From a virus: a stretch of DNA of 64,000 nucleotides. Every line of letters begins with the position of its first letter. Within the stretch, counting starts at the first letter, position 1. Positions 4,858-64,000 of the stretch are shown here, piece after piece. The stretch is taken from IMG/VR virus record IMGVR_UViG_3300032770_000005, positions 32,001 to 96,000 of that record. One strand, 5' to 3'. Under the pieces are notes generated by a model. It saw only the letters and a program-made list of their open reading frames with translations. It was not told the origin of the DNA and made no database searches. Position numbers and translations under genes: made by a program.

Positions 4858-5898
4858 GGCGCGAGGCCAGTGCGGGGGCTTCGTGCCTGCGACTACTGCG
4901 CCGCATGCCGCGCTGTGGTCCCAGCCGCCGCCGAGCGAGCCAGTGCGGGGGCCTCATGCCCGCGACATGCCAGCGCAGTGGCTTGGTGCCTGCGACGCTT
5001 GTCTCCTCGGCCGTCGGTGCCGTCAGTCGCGAGGCCAGCGCAGGGGCCTGATGCCTGCGGCCGTGTTGCGAAGCCTGCGCAGAGCCGAGTGCCTGCGACT
5101 GGCGCGTGACGAGATCGGCTCTACCTTAGGCGGTAAGCCGCGAGGCCGGCGCGGGGGCTTGGTGCTCGCGACGTGCGGTCCGAGCACGCACCGGCAACGC
5201 CTGTGTTTGCAGGGCCAGCGCGGGGGCCGAGTGCCCGCGACCCCACTTCTGCGATCCTTCGAGGCCAGCGCGAGGGCATCGTGCTCGCGACCGCGGATCC
5301 GTGCTCGCGACCGCGGATCGCGGTGAGGATCAACGAGCCCGGCCGCAGGGGGCATCGTGCCGTCGCGAAGCCAGCGCGGGGGCCGAGTGCTCGCGACGAG
5401 GTCGTGGGGTGCCCGTGCTCGTGGTCATGAAGCCAGGCCGGCGCGAGGGCTTAGTGCTTGCGACGAGAACTGTGAGCACCACGTCGGCTCAGCAGAAGGC
5501 CAGCGCGGGGGCCGTGTGCCTGCGACGGCGAGCCGGGCGCGCACCGACAGTGGACCGTCATCCGTCGCGAGAGGCCAGCGCGGGGGCCGAGTGCCCGCGA
5601 TTGTCTCGTCGCGGTCATGTTGTTGCGACGACATCATCGTTGCAGGGCCAGCGCGGGGGCCTGATGCCTGCGACTGGGCCGTTGCAGCGCGGTGCGAGTG
5701 CCTGTGTCGCGAGGCCAGCGCGAGGGCTTCGTGCTCGCGACGCAGGGTTCGCCTCCAGAAGCGCGCGGCGCGTGCTCCTCCTCGTCGCGAGGCCAGCGCA
5801 GGGGCCTGGTGCCTGCGACTGGAGATCTGCCATTGTCGTTGCCGGCGCCGTCGATGAGGCCGGAAATCACGCCAGCGCGAGGGTCTCGTGCTCGCGAC
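4858..5898 (+). CRISPR. orphan variant CRISPR array A, about 17 repeats of the Cas12m-associated family
   Basis: Repeats such as GTTGCAGGGCCAGCGCGGGGGCCTGATGCCTGCGAC (5639-5674) and GTCGCGAGGCCAGCGCGAGGGCTTCGTGCTCGCGAC (5706-5741); unique spacers from about 0 to 43 nt; local 20-nt duplication 5281-5319. Confidence 0.85.
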
Positions 5899-5956
5899 AT
5901 CACAGGAACGCGACCACGGCTTGGCGCCGAGGGGCCGGCCCGGTACGATGCGAGGC

Positions 5957-6727
5957 ATGACGACCCGCCGAGGCATGCTCTGGAAGACGCCGTGGAAGAG
6001 AGATCGCAACAAGGCGCCCCTGCCTCCCGGCGGCGAGATGGCCTTCTTCCAGAACTTCGACTCCGGCGCGAACAGTTCCGCGTACAAGAGCGTCGGCAAC
6101 ACGATGCTCGGGCAGTCGCTGCCGTTCTGGTTCGGCGCAGTGAGCGCGCAGCAGAACACGCTCACCAACTTCTTCGGCGCGGTCCCCGGCGCCGGCTTCG
6201 GCTTCTCAGCAGGGCTGCTCGGTGGCACGGCTGGCCTCGTCTCGGGCAATGCTGAGGCGGCTCCGAGCCTCGTCTCCAACGGCCAGCTCGCGGTCAGGCC
6301 TGCCGCCGGCACGATCGCGGTCGTCGCCATCCTGGCGATCGTCGAGCAGGCCGGCGCGGGCTACCGGCTCACGACGTACTTCTGTCGGCTCGGGCAGCCG
6401 ATCAAGCAGACCGTGACGCCCTACGCGCCGCCCGGCGCGACGCAGCTCGTTCTGTCCGCGAGCACCGGGCTGATCCACGGCGCAGCCGGCGGAGCCGGCG
6501 TGCCGACCGCCGCCCAGGTCCAGTCGTGGTTCCAGCAGCTGAAGCTGAACCGCGAGGTCGGGGAGATCCCCGGCCTCACGTCGCACCTCTACTCCGCTAC
6601 GAGCGTCTATCCGCTCGTGCCGGCCGTGCTACCGAACGGAGCGGGCGGCCAGAACATGGACTACACGGTGATCGCTGGCGCGCCGACACCGACCAACGTG
6701 CTGCTCGCCGTGTCGTTCCCCTGGTGA
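5957..6727 (+). CDS. hypothetical, possibly structural protein
   Basis: Strong codon usage; start at 5948 or 5957; annotated ORF start 5888 lies inside the array. Confidence 0.65.
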   Translation: MTTRRGMLWKTPWKRDRNKAPLPPGGEMAFFQNFDSGANSSAYKSVGNTMLGQSLPFWFGAVSAQQNTLTNFFGAVPGAGFGFSAGLLGGTAGLVSGNAEAAPSLVSNGQLAVRPAAGTIAVVAILAIVEQAGAGYRLTTYFCRLGQPIKQTVTPYAPPGATQLVLSASTGLIHGAAGGAGVPTAAQVQSWFQQLKLNREVGEIPGLTSHLYSATSVYPLVPAVLPNGAGGQNMDYTVIAGAPTPTNVLLAVSFPW

Positions 6728-6743
6728 ACGTGTCGGACACGTT
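6727..6743. promoter_or_regulatory. 17-bp palindrome AACGTGTC-G-GACACGTT (TGTCnGACA operator family)
   Basis: Perfect inverted repeat 15 nt upstream of the 6759 start; core recurs about 10 times in the window. Confidence 0.55.
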
Positions 6744-6758
6744 GTAGGCTGCTCGTCC

Positions 6759-7205
6759 ATGAGCAACGACGCCTTCAACCGCGGCATCTTCAGCGAGCAG
6801 AAGGGCGTGCTCGACGACGCCTTCCAGAACGCGACGGGCGTCGAGCACGCGACCGGCGATCTCAAGGAGGGCATCAGAGAGAACGTCGAGATGGGCGGCG
6901 TGCGCCTCATGAGCGACTGCAACTACTGCGGGCTCCAGTGGCGCGGCATCGTGAAGTGGCCCGAGATCGCCGGCTTCTTCACCGGTCAGCAGGTGCCGGG
7001 CACCCAAGCGATCAGACCCGGCGTGGCCAGCGCCTTCGGTTGCAGAAAATGCAACAGCGTCAACAAGTTCCTGATGCCGTGGGCGGACATCAACCGGTAC
7101 GTGGCGATGGGCGTGGAGATGGGTGCGCTGCCGCGAGACATCTACAAGGTCCGCGAGCAGATCATGGCGCAGCGCGCCGCGCAGAGATCTGCACGCGGCA
7201 GATGA
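6759..7205 (+). CDS. Zn-ribbon hypothetical protein
   Basis: CNYC...CRKC. Confidence 0.7.
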   Translation: MSNDAFNRGIFSEQKGVLDDAFQNATGVEHATGDLKEGIRENVEMGGVRLMSDCNYCGLQWRGIVKWPEIAGFFTGQQVPGTQAIRPGVASAFGCRKCNSVNKFLMPWADINRYVAMGVEMGALPRDIYKVREQIMAQRAAQRSARGR

Positions 7206-7362
7206 CCGACATGCCTGCGCAGGGCCTCGTGCCTGCGACGCACAGCGCCGTGCATCGGCCTCAATCGCGAGGCCAGCGCGAGGGCCTCATGCTCGCGACG
7301 ACCCACGCGTGCTCTACAGGCAGGGGCCGAGGCCTGCGACCAAGAAAAGCGAGGCGCATCCG

Positions 7363-7412
7363 AAAGTCTGTCCGCATGCAGAAGTCTGTCCGCATGCAGA
7401 AGTCCGTCCGCA
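7363..7412 (+). repeat. 18-nt tandem repeat (GAAGTCTGTCCGCATGCA, about 2.7 copies) inside a spacer
   Basis: Read directly. Confidence 0.85.
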
Positions 7413-7721
7413 GATCGGCAGTCGCCAGGCCAGCGCGGGGGCTTCGTGCCTGCGACTTGCAGTGGGAGATCATGTCCGCCGTTGCATGCCAGCGCAGGGG
7501 CTACCTGCCTGCGACGCCCAGGCTCCGCGCGTGTTTGAGGCCAGCACGAGGGCCTCGTGCTCGTGACTCCCGTGCGGCCAGTTCTTGCTCGCTCGCGAAC
7601 CGTCCGCTTGACGACGGACGCCCCAAGGCCAGCGCGGGGGCCGAGTGCCTGCGACTTGCAGTGTGAGCAGTGTGAGATCAGATGGCGGCGCGCATGTAGA
7701 GAGCGTGGCGGCAAACACGGC

Positions 7722-7869
7722 CGGCGAGGCCGGCCCGTGACCGAGCGAGCGGCAGCGAACGGTAGCTCATTGCATCTTCTTCCGGGGACGATGGGTGGCC
7801 GCGCTGTCGTGGCTGCGACGGAGTTGCTGCTCCGTGGTAGTCCGGCGAGATCACGGGTCGGCCTCACCG
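7722..7869 (+). ncRNA. candidate structured RNA, three-way junction on a long closing stem
   Basis: Manual pairing: 7722-7740/7851-7869, 7747-7756/7823-7832, 7761-7772/7789-7800, 7804-7810/7815-7821; G-U pairs favour the + strand. Confidence 0.45.
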
Positions 7870-8138
7870 ACCGACTGCCGATCCTGCGACGCAGATCTGA
7901 GAACGACGCGCATCACGCCAGCGCGAGGGCCGCATGCTCGCGACAAGCGCTCGAACTCTACTAAGCCAGCGCAGGGGCCGCATGCCTGCGACGAGCACGC
8001 TCGCGATGACGCTCGCCGTCGCTCGGCTCGAAAGGCCATCGCGGGGCATCGTGCCCGCGACATGTGGACGGACGAGTTTCTTTTACAAGGCCAGCGCAGG
8101 GGCCCGTGTACCTGCGACGTCTATGGAGGCTGGGCCTC

Positions 8139-8549: not shown

Positions 8550-9028
8550 CGCTGGGCGAGAAGAAACTGCTCGAACATGGGGTTCGCGAGCGCCTCTTCT
8601 CCACCGCCGAGCTTGCGATGTCGGCGCACGACCGCGATCGCCTGCTGTGGCGTCCAGGTCGGGTAGAGCTGGAGCAGCGTCAGGGCGACGAGGAGGCCAG
8701 ATCTGTTCTTCCCTTGCATGCACGTCACGAGCACGCGCTTGCCGTGGCGCACAGCGCGGGCGATCTGCGCCGCGCTTTGCCAGAGCACGGGGATGACGTC
8801 GCGCGGGACGGGACGGTAGATGTCGTCGTCCATCGGCACGCGCAGGACCATCTTCCCGGCTGGCGCCACGAGCTTCGGCTGCGCTTCCATCGCCGAGTAG
8901 ACGATGACGTCGAAGAAGCTGAACAGCCGAGGGTCCGCGCCCGGGTACGCGCCCTGCGCGAGGTGATCGCGTACGATCCAGTTCCAGTCCCGGTAGCTCA
9001 CGAGCAGATGGTAGAACTTGTCCGACAC
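8546..9028 (-). CDS. dual-specificity/Cys-based protein phosphatase
   Basis: VLVTCMQGKNRS (Cx5R) plus PMDD acid loop and ANPMFEQFL. Confidence 0.88.
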   Translation of the reverse strand: MSDKFYHLLVSYRDWNWIVRDHLAQGAYPGADPRLFSFFDVIVYSAMEAQPKLVAPAGKMVLRVPMDDDIYRPVPRDVIPVLWQSAAQIARAVRHGKRVLVTCMQGKNRSGLLVALTLLQLYPTWTPQQAIAVVRRHRKLGGGEEALANPMFEQFLLAQR

Positions 9029-9052
9029 CGTCGCAACGGGTACGGTCGGGAC

Positions 9053-9352
9053 ATGCCCGTGTACTCAGACACCGAGAGCGTCGACGAAGACCTGATGCGA
9101 GTGCTGACTGGCATCCGTGACCGCCAGCTCGACCTCGTGATCCTCATCGGCGCTGCGTGCGTCGACCGTCCGAACGGCGGCGCACTCGCCGAGTACGTCG
9201 TCGCCCGACCTCGAACCGGCGAGCCCGAGGTGCCGCCCGACCGGCTCTACGCGATGCTCAAGTCGTCGGCCCAGCACCTGCGGGCGATGGCGGCGAGCAT
9301 GGACCAGATGGCCGACACGATCGCGTCTCCGCCGTCCGAAGACCTGAACTGA
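9053..9352 (+). CDS. hypothetical protein
   Basis: MPVYSDTES start, good codon usage. Confidence 0.6.
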   Translation: MPVYSDTESVDEDLMRVLTGIRDRQLDLVILIGAACVDRPNGGALAEYVVARPRTGEPEVPPDRLYAMLKSSAQHLRAMAASMDQMADTIASPPSEDLN

Positions 9353-9976
9353 TCACGCGCGGGCGCGTCGCCGGCGAACGACCGCGACCAGGACGAGCGC
9401 GAGCGCCCCGACCGCGGTAGCGCCGATGGCGATCGCGACGCCCATGCCGGCGCCTCCACGGGCCGCCTGGTCCATCACCGTCGCCATCGCCTGACCCCAG
9501 CCCTGCGCGGAGGTGGGCGTGAGGTGCCAGCCGAGCGAGTCGCGCGGCAGCGAGGTCGGCGTGCTCGGGTACGCGTCGATGTAGTTCGCGCCGAAGATCG
9601 CCTGGTTCTGCGTCCGCAGCGCATCTCCCACTTGCTGCGACGGCTGGCCGCTGCTCGTCGGCGAGGCGTCCGGCGGGTACTGCGGCGGACCGCTCATGTA
9701 GACGGGCGCGTGCACGCTGTCACGCATCTGGACGAGCGCGTTGCTCGTGGCCGTGCCGGCCGGGCTGTTGTGCCCGAAGATGAGCAGGACGAGATCGTTC
9801 TGAGCGGCCAGCGACGTGTACTGGTTCCAGAGCGACGGCGTGTTGACGTACGTGACGGGCGAGTCGCCGTCGTTGTGGATCTGCGTCACGGTGTGCCCAA
9901 GCGCGACGAGCGCGGCCTTCGCGGCGGCGCCGGGGTTGCCGGCCTGCGAGTCGCCGATGATCAGGATGTTCGCCAC
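9353..9976 (-). CDS. SGNH/GDSL hydrolase with C-terminal TM anchor and Arg tail
   Basis: ILIIGDS, FGHN, DSLGWH motifs; hydrophobic helix followed by RRRRARA. Confidence 0.8.
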   Translation of the reverse strand: MANILIIGDSQAGNPGAAAKAALVALGHTVTQIHNDGDSPVTYVNTPSLWNQYTSLAAQNDLVLLIFGHNSPAGTATSNALVQMRDSVHAPVYMSGPPQYPPDASPTSSGQPSQQVGDALRTQNQAIFGANYIDAYPSTPTSLPRDSLGWHLTPTSAQGWGQAMATVMDQAARGGAGMGVAIAIGATAVGALALVLVAVVRRRRARA

Positions 9977-9977
9977 G

Positions 9978-10268
9978 TCAGCGTCTCCGCTTGCTCGTCC
10001 GACGACCGCGAGGCGAGGACACGTTCTTCTGCACGACCGGCACGACGTACTGAGCTTCGAGCGCCGACAGTGTCGGCTTCGGCGCCGGCGACGGCGTGAC
10101 GTAGACCGCGTATGAGGTCTTGCTCGCTCGGCTCCGCGAGGGCAGCTCCTCGATCTTGCCGAACCAGTTGCCCACGCTCTGGAGCTTCCAGCCTATGAGC
10201 GCGTTGACCGCGTTCGCGGGCGTGGTCCAGCGTCCGATCTCCAGCCAGTTGTCGTCGTCCTTGCTCAT
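9978..10268 (-). CDS. hypothetical protein with basic tail
   Basis: MSKDDDNW start coupled to upstream stop. Confidence 0.55.
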   Translation of the reverse strand: MSKDDDNWLEIGRWTTPANAVNALIGWKLQSVGNWFGKIEELPSRSRASKTSYAVYVTPSPAPKPTLSALEAQYVVPVVQKNVSSPRGRRTSKRRR

Positions 10269-11464
10269 CCGAGTCTCCGTGGTCGCGACGGCCGCCCGCC
10301 GCAGCTGATGCACTGTACGTCGTTCACGCCGTACTCGATCGACCGACCGAACACGTGTTCGGCGATCTTGTCGGCGCGACGCTCGATGCTCTCGGGCAGC
10401 CGTCCGTAACGGCGCTCGACCGCGGCGCGTCCGAACCGGAACTCCACCGCGTGCCCGAACTCGTGCGCCACGAGGCCATCGATGTACGCCTGCGGCAGCT
10501 GCTCCGTCTTCGCGGCGAACGCGATGACGAGCGGGTCACCCTTCTTGCAGTAGCCGAACTGCCGCTCGGAGCCGTGGCCGTTGTCGCTGGCCGCATGCTC
10601 GTCGAGGTGCAGCTCTACGGTGCCGAGGTCCGGCCACTCGCGCGCCGCCGCATCGAAGTGCCGATCGAAAGATCGGCGCACGCGCTCCATCGAGCCGTTG
10701 TGGGCTAGTGGCACCTGGGGGCCACGGACTCGGCGCACGCGCTCGTGAACCGACGGCTCACCGAAGTCGATGATGACGGGCATGTCGCGCTGGATCGACC
10801 ACCTGACGTTCTCGATGTGCAGGTCTTCCGCGTGCACGCCACGCGCGGCCAGCCAATCGTAGCCCGCCAAGATGGTCCCCATCATGGCGTCAGCGTAGGC
10901 GCGCTCGCGCTCCCGAACGCGAGCCTCCTTGGGGTCGTTGCCAAGACGGGCTGTCCACTGCGGCACCACAGCATGGAGGCTCTTGATACCGCCGACACGG
11001 TCGAAGCACTGCCACTCGGACATCCGTTCGAGAGCTAGCTGGAGCAAGAGGAAGGCATGGGCGCGCTGCTCTTCTCCGGGTTGCTCGGCCGTGCCTTCGG
11101 CGAGGATCAGGTATCCGCTGGCACGACCCGGCATCCGCCAGACGCCGTAGACCTGAACGAGGCCCGGCACGGGTGCCTTGGCTCCGGCCACTAGCGCCGC
11201 GGCCCGGGCGTCGCTGACGTCGAACGTGTACTTGAGCACGCGACCGTTGGGTAGCCACCAGGCACGTGCGTACGCGCCTTTGCCAGCGAGGTGCTCGTCG
11301 TCCAGCCAGTCGGGCGGCACGTCCAGCTCGCGCAGCAGCCCGGTCATCGACCGCAGCTTGAGGGTCCAGTAGCCCTCGTCGGCCGGAGGCTGTCCGTTCG
11401 CGGTGACCCCCGCAGCGGCCTGGAGCGCTGGCGACAGGCTGACGATCTTCGGGTTCGACCGCAC
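10265..11464 (-). CDS. Ser/Thr kinase-like domain fused to HExxH metallopeptidase-like domain
   Basis: AGKGAYARA, VLKYT, DLHIENV, IIDFG; C-terminal LVAHEFGH...IERRAD. Confidence 0.75.
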   Translation of the reverse strand: MRSNPKIVSLSPALQAAAGVTANGQPPADEGYWTLKLRSMTGLLRELDVPPDWLDDEHLAGKGAYARAWWLPNGRVLKYTFDVSDARAAALVAGAKAPVPGLVQVYGVWRMPGRASGYLILAEGTAEQPGEEQRAHAFLLLQLALERMSEWQCFDRVGGIKSLHAVVPQWTARLGNDPKEARVRERERAYADAMMGTILAGYDWLAARGVHAEDLHIENVRWSIQRDMPVIIDFGEPSVHERVRRVRGPQVPLAHNGSMERVRRSFDRHFDAAAREWPDLGTVELHLDEHAASDNGHGSERQFGYCKKGDPLVIAFAAKTEQLPQAYIDGLVAHEFGHAVEFRFGRAAVERRYGRLPESIERRADKIAEHVFGRSIEYGVNDVQCISCGGRPSRPRRLG

Positions 11465-11473
11465 GAGGCGATC

Positions 11474-12301: not shown

Positions 12302-12323
12302 CAGCTGACCGCCGCCACGATGG

Positions 12324-13479: not shown

Positions 13480-13480
13480 C

Positions 13481-15297: not shown

Positions 15298-15303
15298 GAC
15301 AGA

Positions 15304-24921: not shown

Positions 24922-25352
24922 TGAACGCGCCCGACATGACGTCCCTCTCGCGCCGAGATCGCGCCGCCATCTTGCTGGCGTTGACGTGGATTCGCGTCAC
25001 GCCTGGTCGCGGTGGCGGTCCGCTGCTGGCGCGGGAGCAGGCGTGCGAAGCGCTGCGGATGGGAGGCAAGGGGGCGAAGGCGATCGCTGAGGCCGTGGCC
25101 AGCGCGAACTCGGAACTGGCGTCCGAGATGGCACGCAACGGCGACTTGTCATCGGAGGCACGCTATCTGGACGTGCTCGCCACGAACCGGCGGCTGGTCC
25201 GCGCCCGCCTCGCGCTCTTCCTGCGGACCGTCGTGCGCGTTGACGACGACGATTACGGATGTTGGGACGGAGACCGCGGTGGATGGTTGCCGCGGCCGTA
25301 TCATGCTCTCTGGGAATCCGCACCACCGCATCGAAAGAAGGTCAGCCAATGA
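24921..25352 (+). CDS. hypothetical protein directly upstream of cas12
   Basis: TGATG start; stop overlaps the cas12 ATG. Confidence 0.6.
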   Translation: MNAPDMTSLSRRDRAAILLALTWIRVTPGRGGGPLLAREQACEALRMGGKGAKAIAEAVASANSELASEMARNGDLSSEARYLDVLATNRRLVRARLALFLRTVVRVDDDDYGCWDGDRGGWLPRPYHALWESAPPHRKKVSQ

Positions 25353-27214
25353 GCGTCAAGGTCTATCGCTATGGTTTGGGCGCACCGGTCGAGAACGAAG
25401 CGTTGGTGCGGGCGCAGCTGCGTGCGGCGCATCACTACCGCAACGCGCTCGTCGAGGTCGAGCGGTGGCGCCGCGCCGAGCACCGACGACTGCTCGGTGC
25501 GCATCCGGGCGTCGGGCCGGCGGAGGCCGCGGTGACGCTCGCCCATGCGGTGCTCGACGAGGCGTTGACCGCCGTCAAGCGCGTGAAGGGGGCGAGTCGC
25601 AGCGGTGCGGTGCCGTCGGAGTTGCGCGCTGCGCTCCATGTGGCGCGCTCCCGCAAGGCCGATGCCGTGCGAGCGTTCCGAGAGGCGCGAGCGGCGCTGC
25701 GCGGAGACGAAGCGCTGAACGCCGAGCGGGCGCGCGTCGACGAGACGGCTGCTCAGCGGCGGAAGGCCCTCCGAGCGTCCTGCGGCGTCTACTGGGGCAC
25801 GTACCTCGGGATCGAAGCGGCGGATGAGCAGTCGCGCAAGCAGCCGCTCTACGACGGCGCGGAGCCGCTCGACCCGCGGTTCATGCCGTGGACGGGCGAA
25901 GGACGTGTCGGCGTTCAGTTCCAGGGCGGCCTCGCGGTCGACCAGGTGGTGGACGACACGCGCATGAGGATCGAGGACGCGCAGCCGGTGCGCGTCTCAA
26001 AGCTCGGGCGCGTGCTGCCTCAGCGTGATCCGTCGAGCAAGCGATCCGCCCTCCGCCGCTACGCGACGCTCGCGCTGCGCGTCGGGTCCGACGACGATCG
26101 TGGGCCCGTGTGGGCTCGCTGGCCGCTCGTGCTGCACCGGCCGCTCCCCGAGGGCGGCGTCCTCAAGTGGGCACACGTCTCGCTCCGGCGGATCGGTCCG
26201 CGCGAGGAGTGGTCGCTGCTTTGCACCGTCGAGAGCGAGGACCGTCGCCCGCTGCCGCCGCTCGAAGCCGGAGCGGTCGCGGTCGATCTCGGGTGGCGGC
26301 AGATGGACGACGGCTCCGTGCGCGTCGCCTACTGGCTGGGCCAGGACGGGCAGGAGGGCGAACTGCGGCTCTCGCCGCGCGACCTCTCCGGGCTCTCGAA
26401 GGCGGACGAGGTGCGGGCTGTCCGCGACCGCGCCTTCGATGCCGCGCGCCGCGAGCTGCGTGAGTGGCTCGCCACGAACCCTGGTCGACCGTGGCTGAGG
26501 ACGAGGTGCGAGTGGATCGACCGGTGGAAGGCGCCGGGCCGGCTCGCCGCGACGGTCGTGCAGTGGCGCGCGGACGGCTTCCGCTTCGAGGGCGACAAGG
26601 AGATCTTCGTGAAGCTCGAAGCGTGGCGCAAGCAGGACAAGCACCTCTGGTGCTGGGAGACGTCGCAGCGCACGGGCGCGCTGCGAGCGAGGAAGGATCT
26701 GTACCGCCGCTTCGCGTGTGACCTGGCGCGTCGCTACCGCACGCTCGTGATCGAAGACTTCGACATGCGCGAGGTGTCGCGCCGACCTGCCGCGGACGAA
26801 GCGGCCGGCAACGCTGCCGCGCGGTCGATGAGGCAGCGGGCAGCGCCGAGCGAGGCTCGTCTCGCGCTCGTGCACGCGTTCCGCGACGTGTCGAAGCAGG
26901 ACCCCGCCGACACGACCCACGACTGCCACTCGTGCGGGTCGCGCGAGCAGTTCGATCAGGCGGCCGAGCTGGTCCATCGCTGCGGAGCGTGCGGCACCGA
27001 GTGGGACCAGGACCGGAACGCGGCTATCAACCTGATGCGTCGCGCGAGCGATGCCGGTGCTCTCGGAGAAGGCGGGGTCGCTCGCGAGCCGCGAGAGGCC
27101 AACGATTTCGAGGCGAAGCCCGCGGGCCGATGGGCGCGAGCGAAGGCGAAGAAGGCCGCTCGCATCGCGCAACAGGCGACCGCTCGCGAAGCGGCGCCCA
27201 GTGACGCGGAATGA
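25349..27214 (+). CDS. cas12m: compact type V CRISPR effector, Cas12m/V-U1 (C2c4)-like, 621 aa
   Basis: VYRYGL..QLRAAHHYRNALVE; YWGTY; GEGRVGVQ; LHRPLP; RuvC-I VAVDLGWR (D313); WKAPGRLA; RKDLYRRFA; RuvC-II LVIED (E469); Zn finger CHSC/CGAC; RuvC-III WDQDRNAA (D555); adjacent array. Subtype recognised from memory of the family, not by search. Confidence 0.85.
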   Translation: MSVKVYRYGLGAPVENEALVRAQLRAAHHYRNALVEVERWRRAEHRRLLGAHPGVGPAEAAVTLAHAVLDEALTAVKRVKGASRSGAVPSELRAALHVARSRKADAVRAFREARAALRGDEALNAERARVDETAAQRRKALRASCGVYWGTYLGIEAADEQSRKQPLYDGAEPLDPRFMPWTGEGRVGVQFQGGLAVDQVVDDTRMRIEDAQPVRVSKLGRVLPQRDPSSKRSALRRYATLALRVGSDDDRGPVWARWPLVLHRPLPEGGVLKWAHVSLRRIGPREEWSLLCTVESEDRRPLPPLEAGAVAVDLGWRQMDDGSVRVAYWLGQDGQEGELRLSPRDLSGLSKADEVRAVRDRAFDAARRELREWLATNPGRPWLRTRCEWIDRWKAPGRLAATVVQWRADGFRFEGDKEIFVKLEAWRKQDKHLWCWETSQRTGALRARKDLYRRFACDLARRYRTLVIEDFDMREVSRRPAADEAAGNAAARSMRQRAAPSEARLALVHAFRDVSKQDPADTTHDCHSCGSREQFDQAAELVHRCGACGTEWDQDRNAAINLMRRASDAGALGEGGVAREPREANDFEAKPAGRWARAKAKKAARIAQQATAREAAPSDAE

Positions 27215-27233: not shown

Positions 27234-28206
27234 GTTGCAGGGCCAGCGCGGGGGCCGAGTGCCTGCGACGCGTCCGCGAGCCCAACGACGCGATCCGCCT
27301 GCGCTGGCGTTGCAGGGCCAGCGCGGGGGCCGAGTGCCTGCGACGGGCGATCTCCGCGGCGTTCCGTCGCCGCTAAATCAGCGGGTTGCAGGGCCAGCGC
27401 GGGGGCCGAGTGCCTGCGACACGCCTGCGGACCTTCGAGTTCGGCTGCATGTCGCGAAGTTGCAGGGCCAGCGCGGGGGCCGAGTGCCTGCGACGTTGAG
27501 CAGATTGAAGGTGTTCACCCGCTTCGTCGCGGTTGCAGGGCCAGCGCGGGGGCCGAGTGCCTGCGACGTGGAGGCGGCGAAGACGAGCCGCCGGGGAATC
27601 TTTAGTTTGCAGGGCCAGCGCAGGGGCCTGGTGCTTGCGACTTCTGTCCGTGCTGCGGGCACAAGCCTGCGGAGTAGAGGTGCGAGGCCGGCGCGGGGGC
27701 CTGGTGCTCGCGACCCTCGGTAGCAATCGACCTTCGCGAGCGCGAGCGCCCAGTTGCATGGCCAGCGCGGGGGCCGAGTGCCCGCGACACCTCGGTGATG
27801 TAGCGCTTAGCGCCCGCGTCGCAGGGCCAGCGCGGGGGCCGAGTACCTGCGACCTCTCCAACTGCTCTTGCTCGGTCACGGTGATCTCCTGTTGCAGGGC
27901 CAGCGCGGGGGCCGTGTGCCTGCGACAAACCCCGCGTCGATGAGATCGTACTCGCCCACTCCGGTCGCGAAGCCAGCGCAGGGGCTTTGTGCCTGCGACG
28001 CCAGGCTCGCGAAGGTTGGGCGTGTCGATAGGCCGGCGCGGGGGCCTTGTGCCTGCGACCGTAGGTAGTCCTTCGTGACGCCCAGCATCTGGGCGACGTT
28101 GCAGGGCCAGCGCGAGGGCTTGGTGCTCGCGACAGCCGCTTCACGATCTCGAAGACCCTCTTCTCGTTGTGTGGCGAGGCCTGCGCAGGGGCCTTGTGCC
28201 TGCGAC
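27234..28206 (+). CRISPR. main CRISPR array, 14 repeats and 13 spacers, repeat GTTGCAGGGCCAGCGCGGGGGCCGAGTGCCTGCGAC (36 nt)
   Basis: Repeats start at 27234, 27309, 27385, 27459, 27532 (identical), then variants at 27606, 27679, 27753, 27818, 27891, 27964, 28024, 28098, 28171; spacers mostly 37-40 nt (two of 29 and 24). Confidence 0.97.
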
Positions 28207-40623: not shown

Positions 40624-40937
40624 CACGGCGCGCCGGCGCGAGGGCTTCGTACTCGCAACTCGGAGGAGGATAGTGCGAAGCCAGCGCGGGGGCCGAGTGC
40701 CTGCGAGCGAGCGCGTCCGGTCTCGTCGTCGCGAGGCCTGCGCGGGGGCCTGATGCCTGCGACCGGTCCATCGGAGTCTCCTTTTGCTGTTGTGCGAGGT
40801 CGCAGGGCCAGCGCGGGGGCCTTGCGCTCGCGACACAATGAACCGGACGCTCGTCCGGTAGCCAGCGCAGAGGCTTCATGTCTGCGACCGCATCGCTGGT
40901 AGGCGAAAGGCCAGCGCAGGGGCCGAATGCCTGCGAC
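40624..40937 (+). CRISPR. orphan variant CRISPR array C, 6 repeats
   Basis: Repeat ends at 40659, 40707, 40763, 40834, 40888, 40937; spacers about 12-35 nt. Confidence 0.8.
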
Positions 40938-47891: not shown

Positions 47892-48107
47892 GTCGCAGGC
47901 ACCCCTGCGGTTCGCGGGCACATTCGGAAGCGGGCTGGTCACCATGTCGCGAGCACGAGGCCCCCGCGCTGGCCAGACGCGCGCCGCGCCGGGCGTCACG
48001 TAGTCGACGTGTCGCGAGTACCAAGCCCTCGCGCTGGCTTCCGACCACGAGAGACGGGTCCACTACGTCCTCGACGCGAGCACGAAGCCCTCGCGCTGGC
48101 TTCGCCC
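47892..48107 (-). CRISPR. orphan mini-array D in reverse orientation, 3 repeats plus 2 remnants
   Basis: Reverse-complement repeats at 47946-47974, 48011-48045, 48073-48107; remnants at 47892 and 47912. Confidence 0.75.
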
Positions 48108-48108
48108 C

Positions 48109-52833: not shown

Positions 52834-53051
52834 CGTGCAGGACTCCCGAGACGTTCGAGGATCTGATGCGACGAGCGCGCAGGTTCATCGACAGGCGGCC
52901 TGTCGAACTGCCGCGGCCCAAGCCGTGGGCCTCGGAACAGGTGCCGCGGCCGACGCCATGGGCCTCGGAACAGGTGCCGCGGCCCAAGCCGTGGGCCGCG
53001 GAGCACTGCGACTGTGGTCGACGACGAGAGCACGACGAGGGCGGACGATGA
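52830..53051 (+). CDS. small protein with 11-aa tandem repeat PRPKPWASEQV
   Basis: 33-nt tandem repeat about 52909-52997. Confidence 0.5.
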   Translation: MTCRTPETFEDLMRRARRFIDRRPVELPRPKPWASEQVPRPTPWASEQVPRPKPWAAEHCDCGRRREHDEGGR

Positions 53052-53208
53052 GCGCACGTACTCAATGGAGGTACATCGCCTGGACGCGCTCTCTGCACTA
53101 TGGAGAGCCATTCCGCGCGTGGCTGCTACGCACGTCGAACCGGCTCGATCGACAGGAAGGCCCGCCATCGCTCGTATGCCGTGTGCTCGATCGTCTCGCG
53201 GGGTGGCC

Positions 53209-54423
53209 ATGACCGCTCGTACCCTCATCGACCGTGACGCGGTGGTCGCGAGGCTTCGACAGCGTGCCGAGGCCGCCGAGCGCGCAGGCCGGCACCAGTC
53301 CGGGCCACACATGATGCCGGAGCACTGGCTCCGCGAAGAGGCCGCCGCTATCGAGCGCGAGCCAGCCGCGTCGGTGCCACCAGCGAGCATCCCGGAGCGC
53401 GAGCGAGCGCTGGTGCGGGAGATGTTCAACGAAGTAGTCGAATTCTGCGCGGAGCTGTACGGCGCGTCGCCAGACGGCTTGAGCGACGAAGATGTTGCGC
53501 GAATCGTCGCTCGGGTGGACGCCACACATCCGCACTCCGAACCAAGGCCAGCGCGGGGGCTTGGTGCCTGCGACGGAGCATCTCCGGCCGCCGCGCCGAA
53601 GGTGTCGTGCAGCAAGTGCCTCGGAACGCGGCGCGTGCTCGACTGTCGAGGTAACGACGACGATCGGTGCCCATGGTGCGCCGACCCGAAGCCCGTGCCG
53701 AGCGGGTTGCGGGAGTGGTTCTCGCGCGTGCTGGACGCTGCTGCCGAGCGTGGGCTCGTCGTCTCGTCGGATGAGCGTGGCATCACCGAGGCGCTCGCCA
53801 GCGTCGGCCTGCCGCCCACCGAGCCCGTGCCGAGCGCGTTGGAGTCGGCGTGCGCGTTCTTGCAAGAGCACAGGCAACAGGTGCGCGAGATCGCATCTGC
53901 CGGCGACGGCACATCGTGGTCCGCTGAGGTTGGTGCGACCAGCTACGGACGGGCGCCGACGCTCACGGGATGCCTGTTCGCCACGGCGCGCTCCCTCGGT
54001 TGGATGCCACCCACGGAACCCAGCCAGAACCCGTTGGAGCGCGCGATGGTGCGTCACGACGCCATCGCACATCAGGCTGACGTGCTCATCGCTCGGTACG
54101 ATGAGCGAGAGCGGTGCGCGAAGGCGTGCGATGAAGCGGCCGACAGGCGCGAAGGAACGTCGCAGGATTTCTGCGTCTCCGCTCTGCGCAATCTCGCCGC
54201 CTGCATCCGCTCGCTCGGTCCCGCCGCGCCGGCGCCGCGCGCGGAAGAGGTGGCGAACATCATGACGAAGCTGATCGTGAAGAAGCTGCGCGAAGAAGTG
54301 CGCGTGCTCCGCGAGCACGAGCGCACGACGCCGAACGAACACCATGCGCTCAAGGCATGTGGTGCAGCGGATGCGTTCGAAGAACTGGCCGCCCGCATCG
54401 AGCGCGAAGGGAGCTGGCGATGA
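53209..54423 (+). CDS. mosaic hypothetical protein containing an in-frame CRISPR repeat
   Basis: Modules shared with neighbours; CSKC/CPWC finger; repeat at 53546-53574. Confidence 0.6.
   Translation: MTARTLIDRDAVVARLRQRAEAAERAGRHQSGPHMMPEHWLREEAAAIEREPAASVPPASIPERERALVREMFNEVVEFCAELYGASPDGLSDEDVARIVARVDATHPHSEPRPARGLGACDGASPAAAPKVSCSKCLGTRRVLDCRGNDDDRCPWCADPKPVPSGLREWFSRVLDAAAERGLVVSSDERGITEALASVGLPPTEPVPSALESACAFLQEHRQQVREIASAGDGTSWSAEVGATSYGRAPTLTGCLFATARSLGWMPPTEPSQNPLERAMVRHDAIAHQADVLIARYDERERCAKACDEAADRREGTSQDFCVSALRNLAACIRSLGPAAPAPRAEEVANIMTKLIVKKLREEVRVLREHERTTPNEHHALKACGAADAFEELAARIEREGSWR
53546..53574 (+). repeat. solo CRISPR repeat core inside a CDS
   Basis: GGCCAGCGCGGGGGCTTGGTGCCTGCGAC. 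Confidence 0.85.
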
Positions 54424-57820: not shown

Positions 57821-57837
57821 CATCCAGAGAGGCGATC

Positions 57838-58923: not shown

Positions 58924-59480
58924 CCGGGCGACGAGGCGACCCGTCGTACACGCCGCCGACCGACGAGGAGCGACGCCTCGGCTACTACCTCGACTGCGTC
59001 AGCTGCGGCCGCCCGTGGGCGCTGCGCAGCTGCGTGCCGCACTTGCATCGCTGCCGCTCCTGCGCTCGCTCGTGGTGGCGCGACTACCGCCAGGCGGCGC
59101 GCCAAGGGCTGCCGCGGCCGAGCCTGCTAGGGCAGATCGCGCCGCATCCCTTCGCCTCGAAGGCGCTGAACCGCACGGTCGATCTGAACGCTCCGGGGCT
59201 CCTCGACCTGGTCGAGCAGGACCCGAAGTTCGCGAAGGAGCTGGACGCGTACATCGCCAGCCTGCGGCACGCCGACAGCAGCAAGCCGCCGCTGCGCGGC
59301 GCGGCCCTGAGCCTATCGGGACGGCCGCGTCGCCGCGCCGTGCGCGTGCCGCTCGATGAAGACCCTACGCCCGAGCCGCCCATCTCCCGAGCGGCAGCCA
59401 AGGAGGTCGAGCGCCTGGTCGACGAGGTGCTCGTCGGCGACGTGATCGATGCCGGAGCGGTGCCGCGTCGGCGCGCGTGA
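58920..59480 (+). CDS. Zn-finger hypothetical protein
   Basis: CVSC..CRSC. Confidence 0.6.
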   Translation: MTGRRGDPSYTPPTDEERRLGYYLDCVSCGRPWALRSCVPHLHRCRSCARSWWRDYRQAARQGLPRPSLLGQIAPHPFASKALNRTVDLNAPGLLDLVEQDPKFAKELDAYIASLRHADSSKPPLRGAALSLSGRPRRRAVRVPLDEDPTPEPPISRAAAKEVERLVDEVLVGDVIDAGAVPRRRA

Positions 59481-59705
59481 GAGGCCTGCGCGGGGGCATG
59501 GTGCTCGCGACGCGCTCGCGACGAACCACGAGAGCCGGCGACGCGCCCATCCCGAAGCCAGCGCGGGGGCTTCGTGCCTGCGACTCGTGACGGAAGTTTC
59601 TCGTGGCTGACCTGTTGCATTCTGTCGAAAGGCCAGCGCGGAGGCTCTCATGTCCGCGACATGCAGTTCCACGACTGAGCCAGCGCGAGGGCTTGTGCTC
59701 GCGAC
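59476..59705 (+). CRISPR. orphan mini-array E, 4 repeats
   Basis: Repeat ends at 59511, 59584, 59660, 59705. Confidence 0.78.
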
Positions 59706-59778
59706 GGTGTCACGTTCACTGGCGCTTCTGCGACGCGATGCCCGCTAGCCGACGTCCGGCGCCCATGCGACGATCGCG

Positions 59779-60192: not shown

Positions 60193-61133
60193 TGCGCAAG
60201 AACCCGCGGCCGCCCCTCGCTCCCGACTTCGACGAGCTGGTGCGCATCTGGTTGCAGCGCCGCGACGACTTCAAGCTGTGCGCCGAGCTGTCGAACGTCG
60301 CGCCGCCACACTTGAGGATCTGGCCCGAGAAGCGCGGCTACGGATGCTTCGCAGAGGTCAGCCCGACACACAAGCGCGTCGTCATGTACCGGCGCGGCTT
60401 CCTCGACCGGCCCACCGACATCGCGGCGATGGCCTTGGTCGCCGAGACGGGGCTGCTGGACGACTACGAGATCTTCGAGACCGACGAGGTGACCAACGAG
60501 CTGGTGCCCGTAGGGCTCACGATGCGCTCGCTGCTCTCTGCGATCCACGAGGTGCAGGAAGAGAGCATCGTCCGACACGATCCTCGAAGCGATCTGCCCG
60601 ACGAGCCGCGCACGTTCAAGTACCTCGCGCGGTACAGCCCGCAGGAGATGGAGTGGTACCACGCGACGCTCGCCTCCCGCGTGCCTTCAATCTTGAAGCA
60701 CGGCCTGTTGCCGTCCTCGCTCCAGGAAGGGCGGGTCGAAGGCTGGTCGCCTAGCTGGAACTTCGGCCTCCAGCCGGCCGTGTACCTCACGGCCTACGAG
60801 GACCGAGCCGCGAGGATTGCCGAGACGCTGGCGCTGCGCAACGCGGAGCCCGCGACCCTGCTGGTCGTCGACGGTGCGGGCCTGATCGACACCAAGCTCC
60901 TCACCTACGACGAAGATGCTCTACGCAACGAGTTCTCGTCGTACCCGTACTACGAGCACTACGACCAAGCCTTCCCGCAGTGGGTCACGAGCGCCGAGCA
61001 TCGCGGCACCGAGTCCATCGCCTACCTCGGCCGCATCGGGCCTTCCGCAATCCACCCGCTCGCCACCGTGCGCCTGGTCGAGCACGATGGCGAGGTCGAT
61101 CTGGAGTGGGACGATGAGCAAGACCGAGACTGA
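60192..61133 (+). CDS. Tpt1/KptA-like ADP-ribosyltransferase-fold protein
   Basis: WYHAT...SILKHGLLP, AVYLT...A, LLVVD, YLGRIGPSAI. Confidence 0.72.
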   Translation: MRKNPRPPLAPDFDELVRIWLQRRDDFKLCAELSNVAPPHLRIWPEKRGYGCFAEVSPTHKRVVMYRRGFLDRPTDIAAMALVAETGLLDDYEIFETDEVTNELVPVGLTMRSLLSAIHEVQEESIVRHDPRSDLPDEPRTFKYLARYSPQEMEWYHATLASRVPSILKHGLLPSSLQEGRVEGWSPSWNFGLQPAVYLTAYEDRAARIAETLALRNAEPATLLVVDGAGLIDTKLLTYDEDALRNEFSSYPYYEHYDQAFPQWVTSAEHRGTESIAYLGRIGPSAIHPLATVRLVEHDGEVDLEWDDEQDRD

Positions 61134-62454: not shown

Positions 62455-63890
62455 TGTTGCTGCAAGACGCTACGTCGGAACGGGAGGTCGAGGAAGTGCT
62501 GGCCGGCGCGCGTGGCGACGAGGAAGCCGCCGAGCTGCGGACCGACATCGAGACCGAGCTGGACTACGCCATGCGGCGGTTCGACGAGCACTTCTACAAG
62601 TACGTCGAGCCATCTGAGCCGACGGAGCTGCGGGACTTCGTGCAAGACAACGATGGATTCATCGACGAGCTAATCAGCGACAGCGCGCAGACCACGTACG
62701 ACCTATCGATCGTCCCGCGTGAGGACGTGGTCACCGCGGTGCGCTGGGAGGTGACGTCGCGACGGTCCTCATACAAGCATAGGTTTGGGATCTTCGAGTT
62801 GGGCGAGCCGCGAGACGTCGACGCATCGGGCTTCAGCTACGACATGCCCACCGAAGCGAACGTCGTCTTTCCCGACAGGCTCCTGCCGACCAACTACGAG
62901 TTCGTGCCACGCGAGATGGCGACGGAGTTCTGGAAGGGCATTGCGCATGACCACGACATCGAGTGGTACGGCGACACGGACCGGTTGGGTGACAACCAGG
63001 GCTCGATGCCGGGCGAGCCGCTCCGTATCGGCGTCGCGGAAGATCGCTTCGAGGAGTGGTGCCGCGACCTGATCGCCGAGCACGCGAACAAGATCGCAGA
63101 GCAGCATCCGGACCAGCTCATCGAGATGTTCTGGACTCGGCTCCGTCAATCCGATGTCCGGATGGCAGCCGAGTTCAAGGCGATGCAGCCGCGGCGGGAG
63201 GACGTGCTCGACCTGGCCGTGCAGTGGATCAGCGGCAACCACGACGATGTCGCCGAGGAGATCGCGCAGTACCTCGACTCGGCCAAGGAGCGCGGGGAGG
63301 CAGAGAAAGCGGAGTACGAGCCCGTCGACTCGCTCCTGACCGGCGAGCCCATCGTGCTCAACGACGACGTGCTGCGGCAGCTGGGCGTCACGAGCGGCGT
63401 GTTCTGGGAGGAGCGCCCGTGGCACCTCGTGAGGCTCGAAGCGCGTGACCTAGGTCGCGAGGGCCGGCAGATGCGGCACTGCGTCGGCGACAAGGGCATG
63501 GGCTACATCCGTGCGCTCAACAACGGCGAGATCGAAGTCTGGTCTCTGCGCTCCCGCGACGACAAGCCGCGGTTCACGCTCCAGGTCGACGCGTCGTTCT
63601 TCGCGAAGGGCGCGACGCCAGAGACGCGCGGCAAGGCGATCCAACAGGTCAAGGGCAAGGCGAACCGGGTGCCGGGCTATGCCGACGCGTACGGCCGCTC
63701 GGGGAACGTGAAGTTCCCGGAGGAGATCGTCATCTGGAGCTGGATCTTCGAGCAGCTCATGGTCGATCCGCTCGTCGTCGAAGACTTCAAGGGCTACAAG
63801 GCGCTTCCCTCGCGTGCTACGCCGCTCGCGTCGAACATGACTGGCCAGCAGTGCGTGGGCTTCGATCTGCCGTACCGACCGCTGCGATGA
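62454..63890 (+). CDS. acidic protein with C-terminal PcfJ-like domain
   Basis: LGREGRQMRHCVG, VWSLR...PRFTLQV, QVKGKAN. Confidence 0.75.
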   Translation: MLLQDATSEREVEEVLAGARGDEEAAELRTDIETELDYAMRRFDEHFYKYVEPSEPTELRDFVQDNDGFIDELISDSAQTTYDLSIVPREDVVTAVRWEVTSRRSSYKHRFGIFELGEPRDVDASGFSYDMPTEANVVFPDRLLPTNYEFVPREMATEFWKGIAHDHDIEWYGDTDRLGDNQGSMPGEPLRIGVAEDRFEEWCRDLIAEHANKIAEQHPDQLIEMFWTRLRQSDVRMAAEFKAMQPRREDVLDLAVQWISGNHDDVAEEIAQYLDSAKERGEAEKAEYEPVDSLLTGEPIVLNDDVLRQLGVTSGVFWEERPWHLVRLEARDLGREGRQMRHCVGDKGMGYIRALNNGEIEVWSLRSRDDKPRFTLQVDASFFAKGATPETRGKAIQQVKGKANRVPGYADAYGRSGNVKFPEEIVIWSWIFEQLMVDPLVVEDFKGYKALPSRATPLASNMTGQQCVGFDLPYRPLR

Positions 63891-63925
63891 CGGCCGTTGG
63901 CATGTGAGCAGTGCAGGTGCTATCG

Positions 63926-64000
63926 CAGCATGCGCCAGCGCGAGGGCCTGGTGCTCGCGACCAGGCCTGAAGAGCCCTGCGGTCACGAAGCCTGCGCAGG
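63926..64000 (+). CRISPR. start of orphan array F (cut by the window end)
   Basis: GCCAGCGCGAGGGCCTGGTGCTCGCGAC ending at 63961, second repeat from about 63982. Confidence 0.7.

What the first reader, a model, noticed from the sequence alone, without database searches (positions are those of the whole stretch)
4858..63961. 'Degenerate' repeats keep a 6-bp helix by compensatory substitutions
Seen: the loop hexamer of the GGCC/GGCC stem pairs with the hexamer before the terminal AC, and the two covary. Consensus CGCGGG/CCTGCG; CGCAGG/CCTGCG (e.g. 5784, 27964, 28171); CGCGAG/CTCGCG (e.g. 5706, 7264, 28098, 63926); CGCGGG/CCCGCG (5206, 27753); CACGAG/CTCGTG (7545/7560); CGCAGA/TCTGCG (40866/40881); CGCGGA/TCCGCG (59637/59653). 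A few copies break it (e.g. CTCGCA near 40655). The outer stem also covaries in some copies (CGAAGCC/GGCTTCG near 59553). Inference: a pseudoknotted crRNA handle under purifying selection. The variants are either functional alleles or come from several sister Cas12m loci, not random decay.
Basis: partly seen in the sequence, partly recalled or inferred. Interest (0 to 1): 0.88.

Follow-up and report, generated by a model that had tools for sequence, protein, structure and literature searches.

The report
Cas12m guide-RNA pseudoknot kept by compensatory changes
A 153-kb virus with its own Cas12m CRISPR enzymes carries about 87 diverged copies of the CRISPR repeat in 11 arrays, and these copies keep the small RNA pseudoknot that Cas12m is known to grip by paired (compensatory) mutations, so most are probably still working guide-RNA handles, not debris.

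Summary
Observation confirmed. In all 87 copies of the 36-nt repeat (58 in the window), the 6-bp helix (repeat positions 14-19 with 29-34) is paired in 98% of cells. Four of its six pairs show changes on both sides. The signal survives column shuffles (0/500) and a crude tree-aware null (7 unpaired cells against 81±39 expected, 0/2000). Two rival helices show no covariation.

The helix is not new. It is the pseudoknot (PK) helix of the Cas12m crRNA scaffold, solved for Cas12m2 and GoCas12m. A Cas12m gene (PDB 23vw, E=1e-67) lies directly upstream of the regular array in the window.

The setting is less ordinary:
- a complete virus record with two Cas12m paralogs, a stump of a third, and no Cas1;
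- 11 intergenic arrays, most with irregular spacers.

G·U outnumbers A·C 49:5, which points to selection on RNA of the repeat-sense strand. The distance between successive scaffolds rarely falls below 17 nt, the length of the Cas12m2 guide-target duplex. A relative (30-repeat array, 48% identical Cas12m) shows the same pattern.

Function of the variants, their targets and their expression are untested. Unchecked notes of this scan report similar scattered Cas12m repeats in other large phages.

The parts
25259..27214 (+). cas12m gene (651-aa ORF; the database protein P0001 is 621 aa and aligns at 100% identity over 95% of the ORF, so its start is probably about 30 codons further in, near 25349)
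   Evidence: PDB 23vw Cas12m E=1.2e-67, Cas12m2 8hhl E=2.6e-27, GoCas12m 8pm4 E=1.4e-26; Pfam Cas12f1-like TNB; P0001
27234..28206 (+). Regular type V-M array: 14 repeats of 36 nt, spacers mostly 37-40 nt. The first five repeats are identical and the distal nine are variants that keep the PK helix.
4858..5898 (+). Irregular array 1: 16 diverged repeat units with spacers of -6 to 70 nt, intergenic in a + strand gene row
7205..8118 (+). Irregular array 2: 10 diverged units, including the CACGAG/CTCGTG copy at 7532-7567
40624..40937 (+). Irregular array: 6 units, including CGCAGA/TCTGCG (40853-40888) and the broken CTCGCA copy (40624-40659)
47946..48108 (-). Three units on the minus strand
53539..53574 (+). 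Solitary unit. It lies in frame inside a long ORF (53014-54423) with a weakly coding composition.
59476..59705 (+). Four units, including CGCGGA/TCCGCG (59624-59660, 1-nt insertion) and a copy with a 1-nt loop deletion (59671-59705)
63926..64000 (+). Start of a five-unit cluster that runs past the window end (to 64232 in window numbering; four + units and one - unit)

Best explanation
The repeat is the 36-nt repeat of a virus-encoded type V-M (Cas12m) CRISPR system. Transcribed in the repeat-sense direction, positions 8-36 fold into the Cas12m crRNA scaffold:
- a 4-bp stem, GGCC (8-11) with GGCC (20-23);
- a 6-bp pseudoknot helix (14-19 with 29-34);
- a likely G13:A35 pair and the 3'-terminal AC, followed by the guide.

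Cas12m needs this shape, so copies that lose pairing are removed. Copies drift along a neutral network of transitions through G·U intermediates:
- G17·U31 to A-U or G-C;
- G18-C30 to G·U to A-U;
- rarer changes at 15-33 and 19-29.

The virus has no adaptation genes. Its 11 arrays are therefore old and evolve by duplication, deletion and point mutation. Selection keeps the scaffold and, apparently, at least about 17 nt of guide.

Shown here:
- the Cas12m identity of the protein;
- the architecture of the repeat;
- the covariation and its strand bias;
- the match between the conservation profile and the solved scaffold;
- the same pattern in a relative.

Inferred, not shown:
- that the irregular units are transcribed;
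- that Cas12m processes and loads them;
- that they guide DNA binding.
For: - Cas12m gene directly upstream of the regular array.
- PK helix paired in 513/522 cells, with pair types GC/GU/AU/CG at 17-31, GC/GU/AU at 18-30, and AU at 15-33 and 19-29.
- Column shuffles never reach the observed values (0/500). The tree-aware null never does either (0/2000).
- The rival terminal helix 1-7/30-36 shows no covariation (264/500), although nested folding predicts it as the minimum-energy helix in 35 of 82 copies.
- G·U against A·C in PK cells is 49:5, or 16:5 without the consensus G17·U31. This is expected for RNA of this strand, not for duplex DNA or the other strand.
- Positions 1-7 are the least conserved (commonest base in 44-71% of the irregular copies) and the core is at least 93% conserved. 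This matches the disordered G(-36)-U(-30) and the ordered scaffold of Cas12m2 (PMC10442227).
- Across five repeat families or arrays, the same register gives 96% pairing. Seven pairs have double changes, including all four stem pairs.
- A relative's 30-repeat degenerate array (L014; its Cas12m is 48% identical) has the PK helix 96.7% paired. It includes a G-C to U-A change at 18-30, and 4/500 shuffles reach its covariation score.
- Scaffold-to-scaffold distances sort as 1, 10, 17, 18, 19, 19, 19, 20, 21, 23.... Only 2 of 29 shortened distances fall below 17 nt (P=4e-5 against a uniform spread). None of 10 does in L014. Cas12m2 forms a 17-bp guide-target duplex (PMC10442227).
- All clusters are intergenic by crude gene calls, and most face the same way as the upstream gene.
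Against:
- No protospacer was found in the virus itself, in the phage collection, or in IMG/VR for three spacers.
- Spacer lengths in the irregular arrays range from -6 to 342 nt. Several copies carry indels or mismatches in the helix, so part of the set is dead.
- The tree for the phylogenetic null was built from the same 36 columns and is poorly resolved. In a blind all-pairs test no single pair reaches E<0.05 (best E=1.3 over 630 pairs).
- Many double-change cells share a few haplotypes, which may have spread by recombination between arrays.
- The uniform null for spacing is arbitrary.
Confidence: 0.7

Rival explanations
1. The irregular clusters are dead relics of old arrays. Compensated pairs arose while the ancestors sat in working arrays and were then copied about by duplication and recombination. 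The pattern would then record past selection, not present selection.
For: - Irregular spacers, indel-bearing copies, repeat fragments (for example the 20-bp tandem duplication at 5280-5319) and a cas12m stump beside the second regular array.
- A few haplotypes account for most double-change cells.
- No targets were found.
Against: - The private double changes (CACGAG/CTCGTG, CGCAGA/TCTGCG, CGCGGA/TCCGCG, CGCCGG/CCGGCG) all sit in irregular clusters.
- Positions 1-7 and the loop have drifted far (15-24 inferred events per column at positions 1-6 and 25), whereas stem columns 9-11 and 20-21 have none.
- The spacing floor near 17 nt is seen in two viruses.
Confidence: 0.15
2. The scattered handles are kept for Cas12m binding but not as guides. 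They could be RNA processing or protection sites in viral transcripts, regulators of the virus's own Cas12m paralogs, or decoys for a host or rival Cas12m (RNA anti-CRISPR style).
For: - The clusters lie at gene boundaries and mostly face the way of the upstream gene.
- A mixed A-B-A mini-array combines the repeats of both paralogs.
- A family-A repeat sits directly after the stop of the paralog gene, and a 179-aa ORF lies between two family-A repeats.
- Unchecked notes of this scan describe lone Cas12m repeats at gene boundaries in other big phages.
- SRUs and mini-arrays with regulatory or inhibitory roles are known (bioRxiv 10.1101/2023.03.03.530964).
Against: - Most units sit in arrays with spacer-like gaps, and the modal spacing is the canonical 44-45 nt core to core.
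- The floor of about 17 nt suggests that a guide is needed.
- The cognate Cas12m is encoded by the same virus, so a pure decoy would inhibit it.
- No partial self-matches in a PAM-proximal position were seen.
Confidence: 0.12
3. The pairing is kept at DNA level, by quasi-palindrome correction through template switching or by selection on a DNA hairpin or cruciform, without any RNA role.
For: The two commonest variants at 17-31 (A-T and G-C) are what correction of the imperfect G/T arm would give.
Against: - The uncorrected G·T state remains in 33 copies.
- G·U outnumbers A·C 49:5, a strand-specific, RNA-like bias.
- The helix overlaps a second helix in pseudoknot topology that matches a solved RNA-protein structure (PMC10442227).
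- The more palindromic terminal helix 1-7/30-36 is not maintained.
Confidence: 0.03

Closest known systems
Cas12m2 (Mycolicibacterium mucogenicum) crRNA scaffold, PDB 8HHL/8HHM (Omura et al. 2023, PMC10442227)
   Same: - 36-nt repeat-derived scaffold.
- 6-bp Watson-Crick PK helix ending 2 nt before the guide.
- A G:A pair extending that helix.
- A short coaxial stem.
- A disordered 5' heptamer.
- A 17-bp guide-target duplex.
   Different: - The protein is only distantly similar (E=2.6e-27).
- The 5' strand of the PK helix is shifted by one nucleotide (-23..-18 here, -22..-17 there).
- The helix sequences differ.
- That system is bacterial with a regular array, whereas this one is viral with 11 mostly irregular arrays.
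GoCas12m and other characterised Cas12m orthologs (Bigelyte et al. 2024, PMC11013384); closest solved protein PDB 23vw
   Same: - A crRNA of about 50 nt with a triplex-PK core.
[quoted passage not shown]
- No tracrRNA.
- Self-processing within the repeat.
   Different: That conservation was described between orthologs. Within-genome divergence of repeats with compensatory changes was not described there.
Myxophage MV-1 type V-M locus (bioRxiv 10.64898/2026.09.14.751636) and Virus Rctr197k (KX853510)
   Same: Virus-encoded Cas12m with an adjacent array and no cas1/cas2/cas4, and no protospacers found. Rctr197k has two Cas12m-like genes, each with an array.
   Different: MV-1 is reported with one consensus repeat and eight spacers. 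In Rctr197k, copies within 3 mismatches are confined to one array. Here there are 87 copies in 11 loci and a second repeat family.
Viral mini-arrays, solitary repeat units and repeat-like regulatory RNAs (Shmakov et al., bioRxiv 10.1101/2023.03.03.530964)
   Same: CRISPR repeats outside the main array in intergenic regions of mobile elements, sometimes with a diverged distal repeat.
   Different: Those are one or two repeats, usually near-identical to a host repeat and often without a cognate effector in the element. Here the arrays are multi-unit, next to or in trans to the virus's own effector, and the repeats are much diverged.

Membership tests
Type V-M CRISPR-Cas (Cas12m) locus | Cas12m effector of about 600 aa (WED/REC/RuvC/TNB) next to the array | tested here: met
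   PDB 23vw Cas12m E=1.2e-67 over residues 37-598; 8hhl, 8hio and 8pm4 at about 1e-27; Pfam TNB domain; 19 nt between the stop codon and repeat 1
Type V-M CRISPR-Cas (Cas12m) locus | Regular array of 36-nt direct repeats with unique spacers | tested here: met
   14 repeats at 27234-28206 with spacers mostly 37-40 nt. A second regular array lies outside the window, at window numbering 73824-75209 on the minus strand. Spacers are not similar to each other or to the virus.
Type V-M CRISPR-Cas (Cas12m) locus | No adaptation module and no tracrRNA | tested here: inconclusive
   There is no Cas1 (PF01867) match in the whole record, which CheckV rates 100% complete. tracrRNA was not searched for.
Cas12m crRNA scaffold (stem plus pseudoknot) | 6-bp PK helix ending 2 nt before the guide, a G:A extension and a 3'-terminal AC | tested here: met
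   14-19/29-34 is 98% paired with compensatory changes. G13 with A35 occurs in 81/87 copies. Positions 35-36 (AC) are about 96% conserved. The register was compared with the text of PMC10442227 and differs by a 1-nt offset.
Cas12m crRNA scaffold (stem plus pseudoknot) | Short stem whose 3' strand lies between the two PK strands (H-type topology) | tested here: met
   Pairs 9-22, 10-21 and 11-20 are invariant within this genome, so they give no covariation there. Between five repeat families or arrays, all four stem pairs change on both sides.
Cas12m crRNA scaffold (stem plus pseudoknot) | RNA is expressed, processed upstream of the scaffold and bound by Cas12m | not testable with these tools
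Solitary repeat units / RNA anti-CRISPR decoys | Single repeats that mimic a host repeat, in an element that lacks the cognate effector | tested here: not met
   The cognate cas12m is in the same virus. Nine of the 11 loci hold 3 to 19 units. The host repeat is unknown.
REP/BIME-type intergenic palindromes | Simple imperfect palindrome unrelated to a CRISPR array, often with a RAYT transposase | tested here: not met
   The unit is the repeat of the cas12m-adjacent array. The simple terminal palindrome 1-7/30-36 is not maintained. RAYT was not searched for.

The most novel reading that the evidence does not exclude
The virus runs a genome-wide network of Cas12m handles. Dozens of diverged scaffolds sit at operon boundaries, are read through from viral genes, and serve two Cas12m paralogs (mixed A-B-A arrays exist). 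They would do so not only as anti-competitor guides but as built-in RNA elements that time or process the virus's own transcripts, or that titrate Cas12m. That would be a use of a class 2 effector beyond defence. Unchecked notes of this scan on other large phages point the same way.
Probability: 0.15. Interest if true: 0.85.

Novelty: new variant of a known kind. Interest (0 to 1): 0.5.

Why it matters
The helix itself is already solved. What is new is a natural mutational scan of the Cas12m handle.

About 70 distinct natural variants show which positions may change and how:
- free to vary: positions 1-8, 12, 23-26, and the pair identities at 17-31 and 18-30;
- fixed: positions 9-11, 13-16, 19-22, 27-29 and 32-36.

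This is directly useful for engineering compact Cas12m repressors and base editors.

It also shows that virus-borne type V-M arrays without adaptation genes can persist as many old, irregular arrays in which only the scaffold and a minimal guide length seem to be kept. That raises the question of what such a virus does with some 80 guides whose targets are unknown.

Tried and rejected
- Rfam gathering scan of the window: no family.
- Rival helices: terminal 1-7/30-36 and extended outer stem 5-11/20-26. Neither covaries.
- Nested thermodynamic folding does not single out the PK helix. It appears in the minimum-energy fold in 24 of 82 copies, against 35 for the terminal helix. Energy alone cannot decide.
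- Self-targeting: only 14-16-nt matches, none starting at the PAM-proximal end of the spacer, at about chance level.
- Targets elsewhere: the array against the phage collection and three spacer 5' parts against IMG/VR. Nothing found.
- The same repeat elsewhere, searched by pattern scan. Viral contigs gave 0 hits. Genome contigs gave 3 and metagenome contigs gave 2, all single chance hits and not arrays.
- Close Cas12m relatives in IMG/VR by peptide patterns: none.
- PHROGs on 20 large ORFs gave only replication-type, lysis and integration hits. These were helicase, HNH, ATPase, integrase, ParB, endolysin, glycosyltransferase and nucleoside deoxyribosyltransferase. No structural hallmark was found.
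- Possible base triple U12 with A17-U31: tree-aware p=0.009 uncorrected, and A12 also occurs with A17-U31 (11 copies here, and the Rctr197k repeat). Left open.
Full report
WHAT IS THERE. The window is bases 32001-96000 of a single 152,857-bp record at 68% G+C. The tools identify it as an IMG/VR virus record that CheckV rates 100% complete.

A 36-nt unit, GTTGCAG-GGCC-AG-CGCGGG-GGCC-GAGTG-CCTGCG-AC, occurs 87 times between 36.8 and 107.2 kb of the record (nhmmer E<0.01). Fifty-eight copies start in the window. There are 77 distinct 36-mers.

The copies form 11 clusters. Two are regular CRISPR arrays:
- window 27234-28206, with 14 repeats and spacers mostly 37-40 nt;
- a 19-repeat array on the minus strand just outside the window.

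The other clusters have 1 to 16 units, with gaps from -6 to 342 nt. By a crude GC3-based gene call all clusters are intergenic, and most face the same way as the upstream gene.

THE EFFECTOR. The ORF 25259-27214 ends 19 nt before the first repeat. It matches solved Cas12m proteins: 23vw E=1.2e-67, Cas12m2 8hhl E=2.6e-27, GoCas12m 8pm4 E=1.4e-26. It also carries the TNB domain.

The record holds a second Cas12m at 8790-10550, 46% identical. It has its own repeat family at 10553, 11127 and 11214. A Cas12m C-terminal stump lies at 107232-107410, beside the second regular array. No Cas1 was found.

THE OBSERVATION. Over the 87 copies the six pairs 14-34 to 19-29 are standard pairs in 513 of 522 cells. 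The pair types are:

| Pair | Types (copies) |
|---|---|
| 17-31 | G-C 34, G·U 33, A-U 19, C-G 1 |
| 18-30 | G-C 57, A-U 17, G·U 11, A·C 1, U·C 1 |
| 19-29 | G-C 81, A-U 2, 4 others |
| 15-33 | G-C 86, A-U 1 |

On alignment A1 the full pseudoknot gives 96.3% paired cells, five pairs with changes on both sides and 45 such cells. None of 500 column shuffles reaches the observed value on four of five measures. Sliding the partner by 1-3 columns drops pairing to 36-55%. MI with APC correction places 18-30, 17-31, 19-29 and 15-33 among the five best non-adjacent column pairs.

PHYLOGENETIC CORRECTION. I built a tree of the 77 distinct units and placed the substitutions of each column by parsimony. 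I then re-dealt the same number of events at random on the branches, each column on its own.
- PK cells left unpaired: 7 observed, 81±39 expected (0/2000).
- Cells with double changes: 39 observed, 4.9 expected (0/2000).
- Pairs with a double change: 4 observed, 1.8 expected (P=0.038).
- With a G-test/APC statistic the per-pair p values are 0.002, 0.002, 0.017 and 0.03. Two pairs pass a test restricted to the ten proposed pairs. None passes a blind test over all 630 pairs.

The tree is weak, because it rests on 36 columns that include the tested ones. This is a rough correction, but the signal survives it. Ascertainment works against the signal, because compensated copies have more mismatches to the search model.

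WHICH HELIX, WHICH STRAND. The 3' hexamer could also pair with the 5' heptamer (1-7 with 30-36). Nested folding prefers that helix in 35 of 82 copies and the PK hairpin in 24. But 1-7/30-36 is paired in only 64% of cells and shows no covariation (264/500).

G·U or U·G cells outnumber A·C or C·A cells 49 to 5 in the PK helix, or 16 to 5 without the consensus G17·U31. On the other strand these G·U pairs would be mismatches. The constraint therefore acts on RNA of the repeat-sense strand, which is the strand read from cas12m into the array.

WHAT IT IS. The Cas12m2-crRNA-DNA structure has a 36-nt repeat-derived scaffold with these features (PMC10442227):
- the first seven nucleotides are disordered;
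- a 6-bp Watson-Crick PK helix joins C(-22)-C(-17) with G(-8)-G(-3);
- the helix is extended by G(-23):A(-2) and stacks on a short stem;
- C(-1) is read by the protein;
- the guide pairs over 17 bp.

GoCas12m has the same triplex-PK core, and predicted stems I and II are conserved among orthologs (PMC11013384).

The unit here has the same plan with a one-nucleotide offset of the 5' strand: stem 8-11/20-23, helix 14-19/29-34, G13 with A35 in 81/87 copies, and AC at 35-36.

The conservation profile of the 72 irregular copies mirrors that structure:
- positions 1-7 are the least conserved (commonest base in 44-71% of copies);
- positions 8, 12, 23-26 and the covarying columns 17, 18, 30 and 31 also vary;
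- positions 9-11, 13-16, 19-22, 27-29 and 32-36 are 93-100% conserved.

The stem does not vary within this genome. It does covary between repeat families. Alignment A2 holds this family's two regular arrays, the paralog's repeat, a relative (L012) and Virus Rctr197k. It is 96% paired in the same register, and seven pairs have double changes, including all four stem pairs.

ARE THE IRREGULAR UNITS ALIVE? Four lines suggest that most are.
1. The private double changes (CACGAG/CTCGTG, CGCAGA/TCTGCG, CGCGGA/TCCGCG, CGCCGG/CCGGCG) lie in irregular clusters.
2. The variants follow the neutral network expected for an RNA helix, that is, transitions through G·U. The variant types are interleaved in every array, including the cas-adjacent one. 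They are therefore not alleles of separate loci.
3. The distance from the end of one scaffold to position 8 of the next sorts as 1, 10, 17, 18, 19, 19, 19, 20, 21, 23 and upward, with the mode at 44-45. Only 2 of 29 shortened distances are below 17 nt (P=4e-5 against an admittedly arbitrary uniform spread). Seventeen is the length of the Cas12m2 heteroduplex.
4. A relative repeats the pattern. The contig behind L014/L015 encodes a Cas12m 48% identical to this one. Downstream of it lie 30 progressively diverged repeats with gaps of 21-148 nt. The PK helix there is 96.7% paired (174/180) and includes a G-C to U-A change at 18-30. Its covariation score is reached by 4/500 shuffles, and no gap is below 21 nt.

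Against this, some copies are clearly broken, with 1-nt deletions in the 5' strand at 5065, 7205 and 8027, C·A at 14-34, and fragments at 5280-5360. No targets were found. No RNA data could be had.

COMPARISON AND NOVELTY. The structure is known. Virus-encoded Cas12m with an adjacent array and no adaptation genes has been reported in a 2026 preprint for myxophage MV-1 (10.64898/2026.09.14.751636). It is also visible in Virus Rctr197k.

Compensatory changes between CRISPR repeat families are long known (my own knowledge: Kunin et al. 2007). My literature searches found no description of either of these:
- a single virus with about 87 diverged handles in 11 arrays serving two paralogs;
- the within-genome compensatory pattern with a guide-length floor.

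Unchecked notes of this scan report scattered Cas12m-type repeats in three other large phages. The phenomenon may therefore be general for big phages. I did not test those notes.

VERDICT. The helix is the known Cas12m pseudoknot. The interest lies in the natural variant series and in the dispersed, long-lived arrays of a virus. Function of the variants remains to be shown.

Noticed in passing
L002:4440-4590 (minus strand; window numbering about 68440-68590): Mixed mini-array: a degenerate copy of the paralog's repeat family (A), then a family-B unit, then a 16-nt gap, then another family-A-like unit. Handles for both Cas12m paralogs sit in one intergenic spot.
   Followed up: partly
L001:10553-11246: A family-A repeat starts 3 nt after the stop of the paralog cas12m (8790-10550). 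A 179-aa ORF (10572-11111 by a crude call) lies between the first and second family-A repeats, like a 541-nt 'spacer'. A third repeat starts 87 nt after the second.
   Followed up: no
L002:11232-11410 (minus strand): Cas12m C-terminal stump (66% identical to residues 592-638 of the window's Cas12m) directly upstream of the second regular array. The rest of that cas12m gene is gone, yet the array keeps 10 or more near-identical repeats.
   Followed up: partly
window repeat positions 12, 17 and 31 in all copies: U at loop position 12 goes with A17-U31 (7 of 10 U12 copies, against 11 of 66 A12 copies; tree-aware p=0.009, uncorrected). The relative L012 has U12 with A17-U31, but Rctr197k has A12. 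This could be a base triple of the triplex-PK core, or it could be shared ancestry.
   Followed up: partly
window 53539-53574: A solitary unit lies in frame inside a 469-aa ORF (53014-54423; GC1/2/3 = 0.71/0.56/0.77) and is followed at once by GGAG. Either the ORF is two genes split by the unit, or the unit is translated.
   Followed up: partly
window 59671-59705 (+) and L002:10240-10274 (-): Two units with the same 1-nt loop deletion are identical over 35 nt, including the 7 nt upstream, but lie on opposite strands 14.5 kb apart. This suggests inverted duplication or recombination between arrays.
   Followed up: no
window 5280-5319 and 7364-7412: Inside the irregular arrays there is a perfect 20-bp tandem duplication of a repeat 3' end plus spacer start, and 2.7 copies of an 18-bp unit (AAGTCTGTCCGCATGCAG) within a 121-nt gap.
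   Followed up: no
record ends (G000:C1:1-60 and 152798-152857): Both ends of the record lie in the same short G+C-rich tandem repeat (GCCACGGCCGGCTACGCGGGCACG-like). The 'linear' record may be a circular or terminally redundant genome that the assembly broke in a repeat.
   Followed up: no
L014:8144-9959: In the relative's contig, the source's gene caller placed two minus-strand 'genes' (283 and 325 aa) over what is a 30-repeat degenerate Cas12m array. Such arrays are easily mis-annotated as genes.
   Followed up: yes
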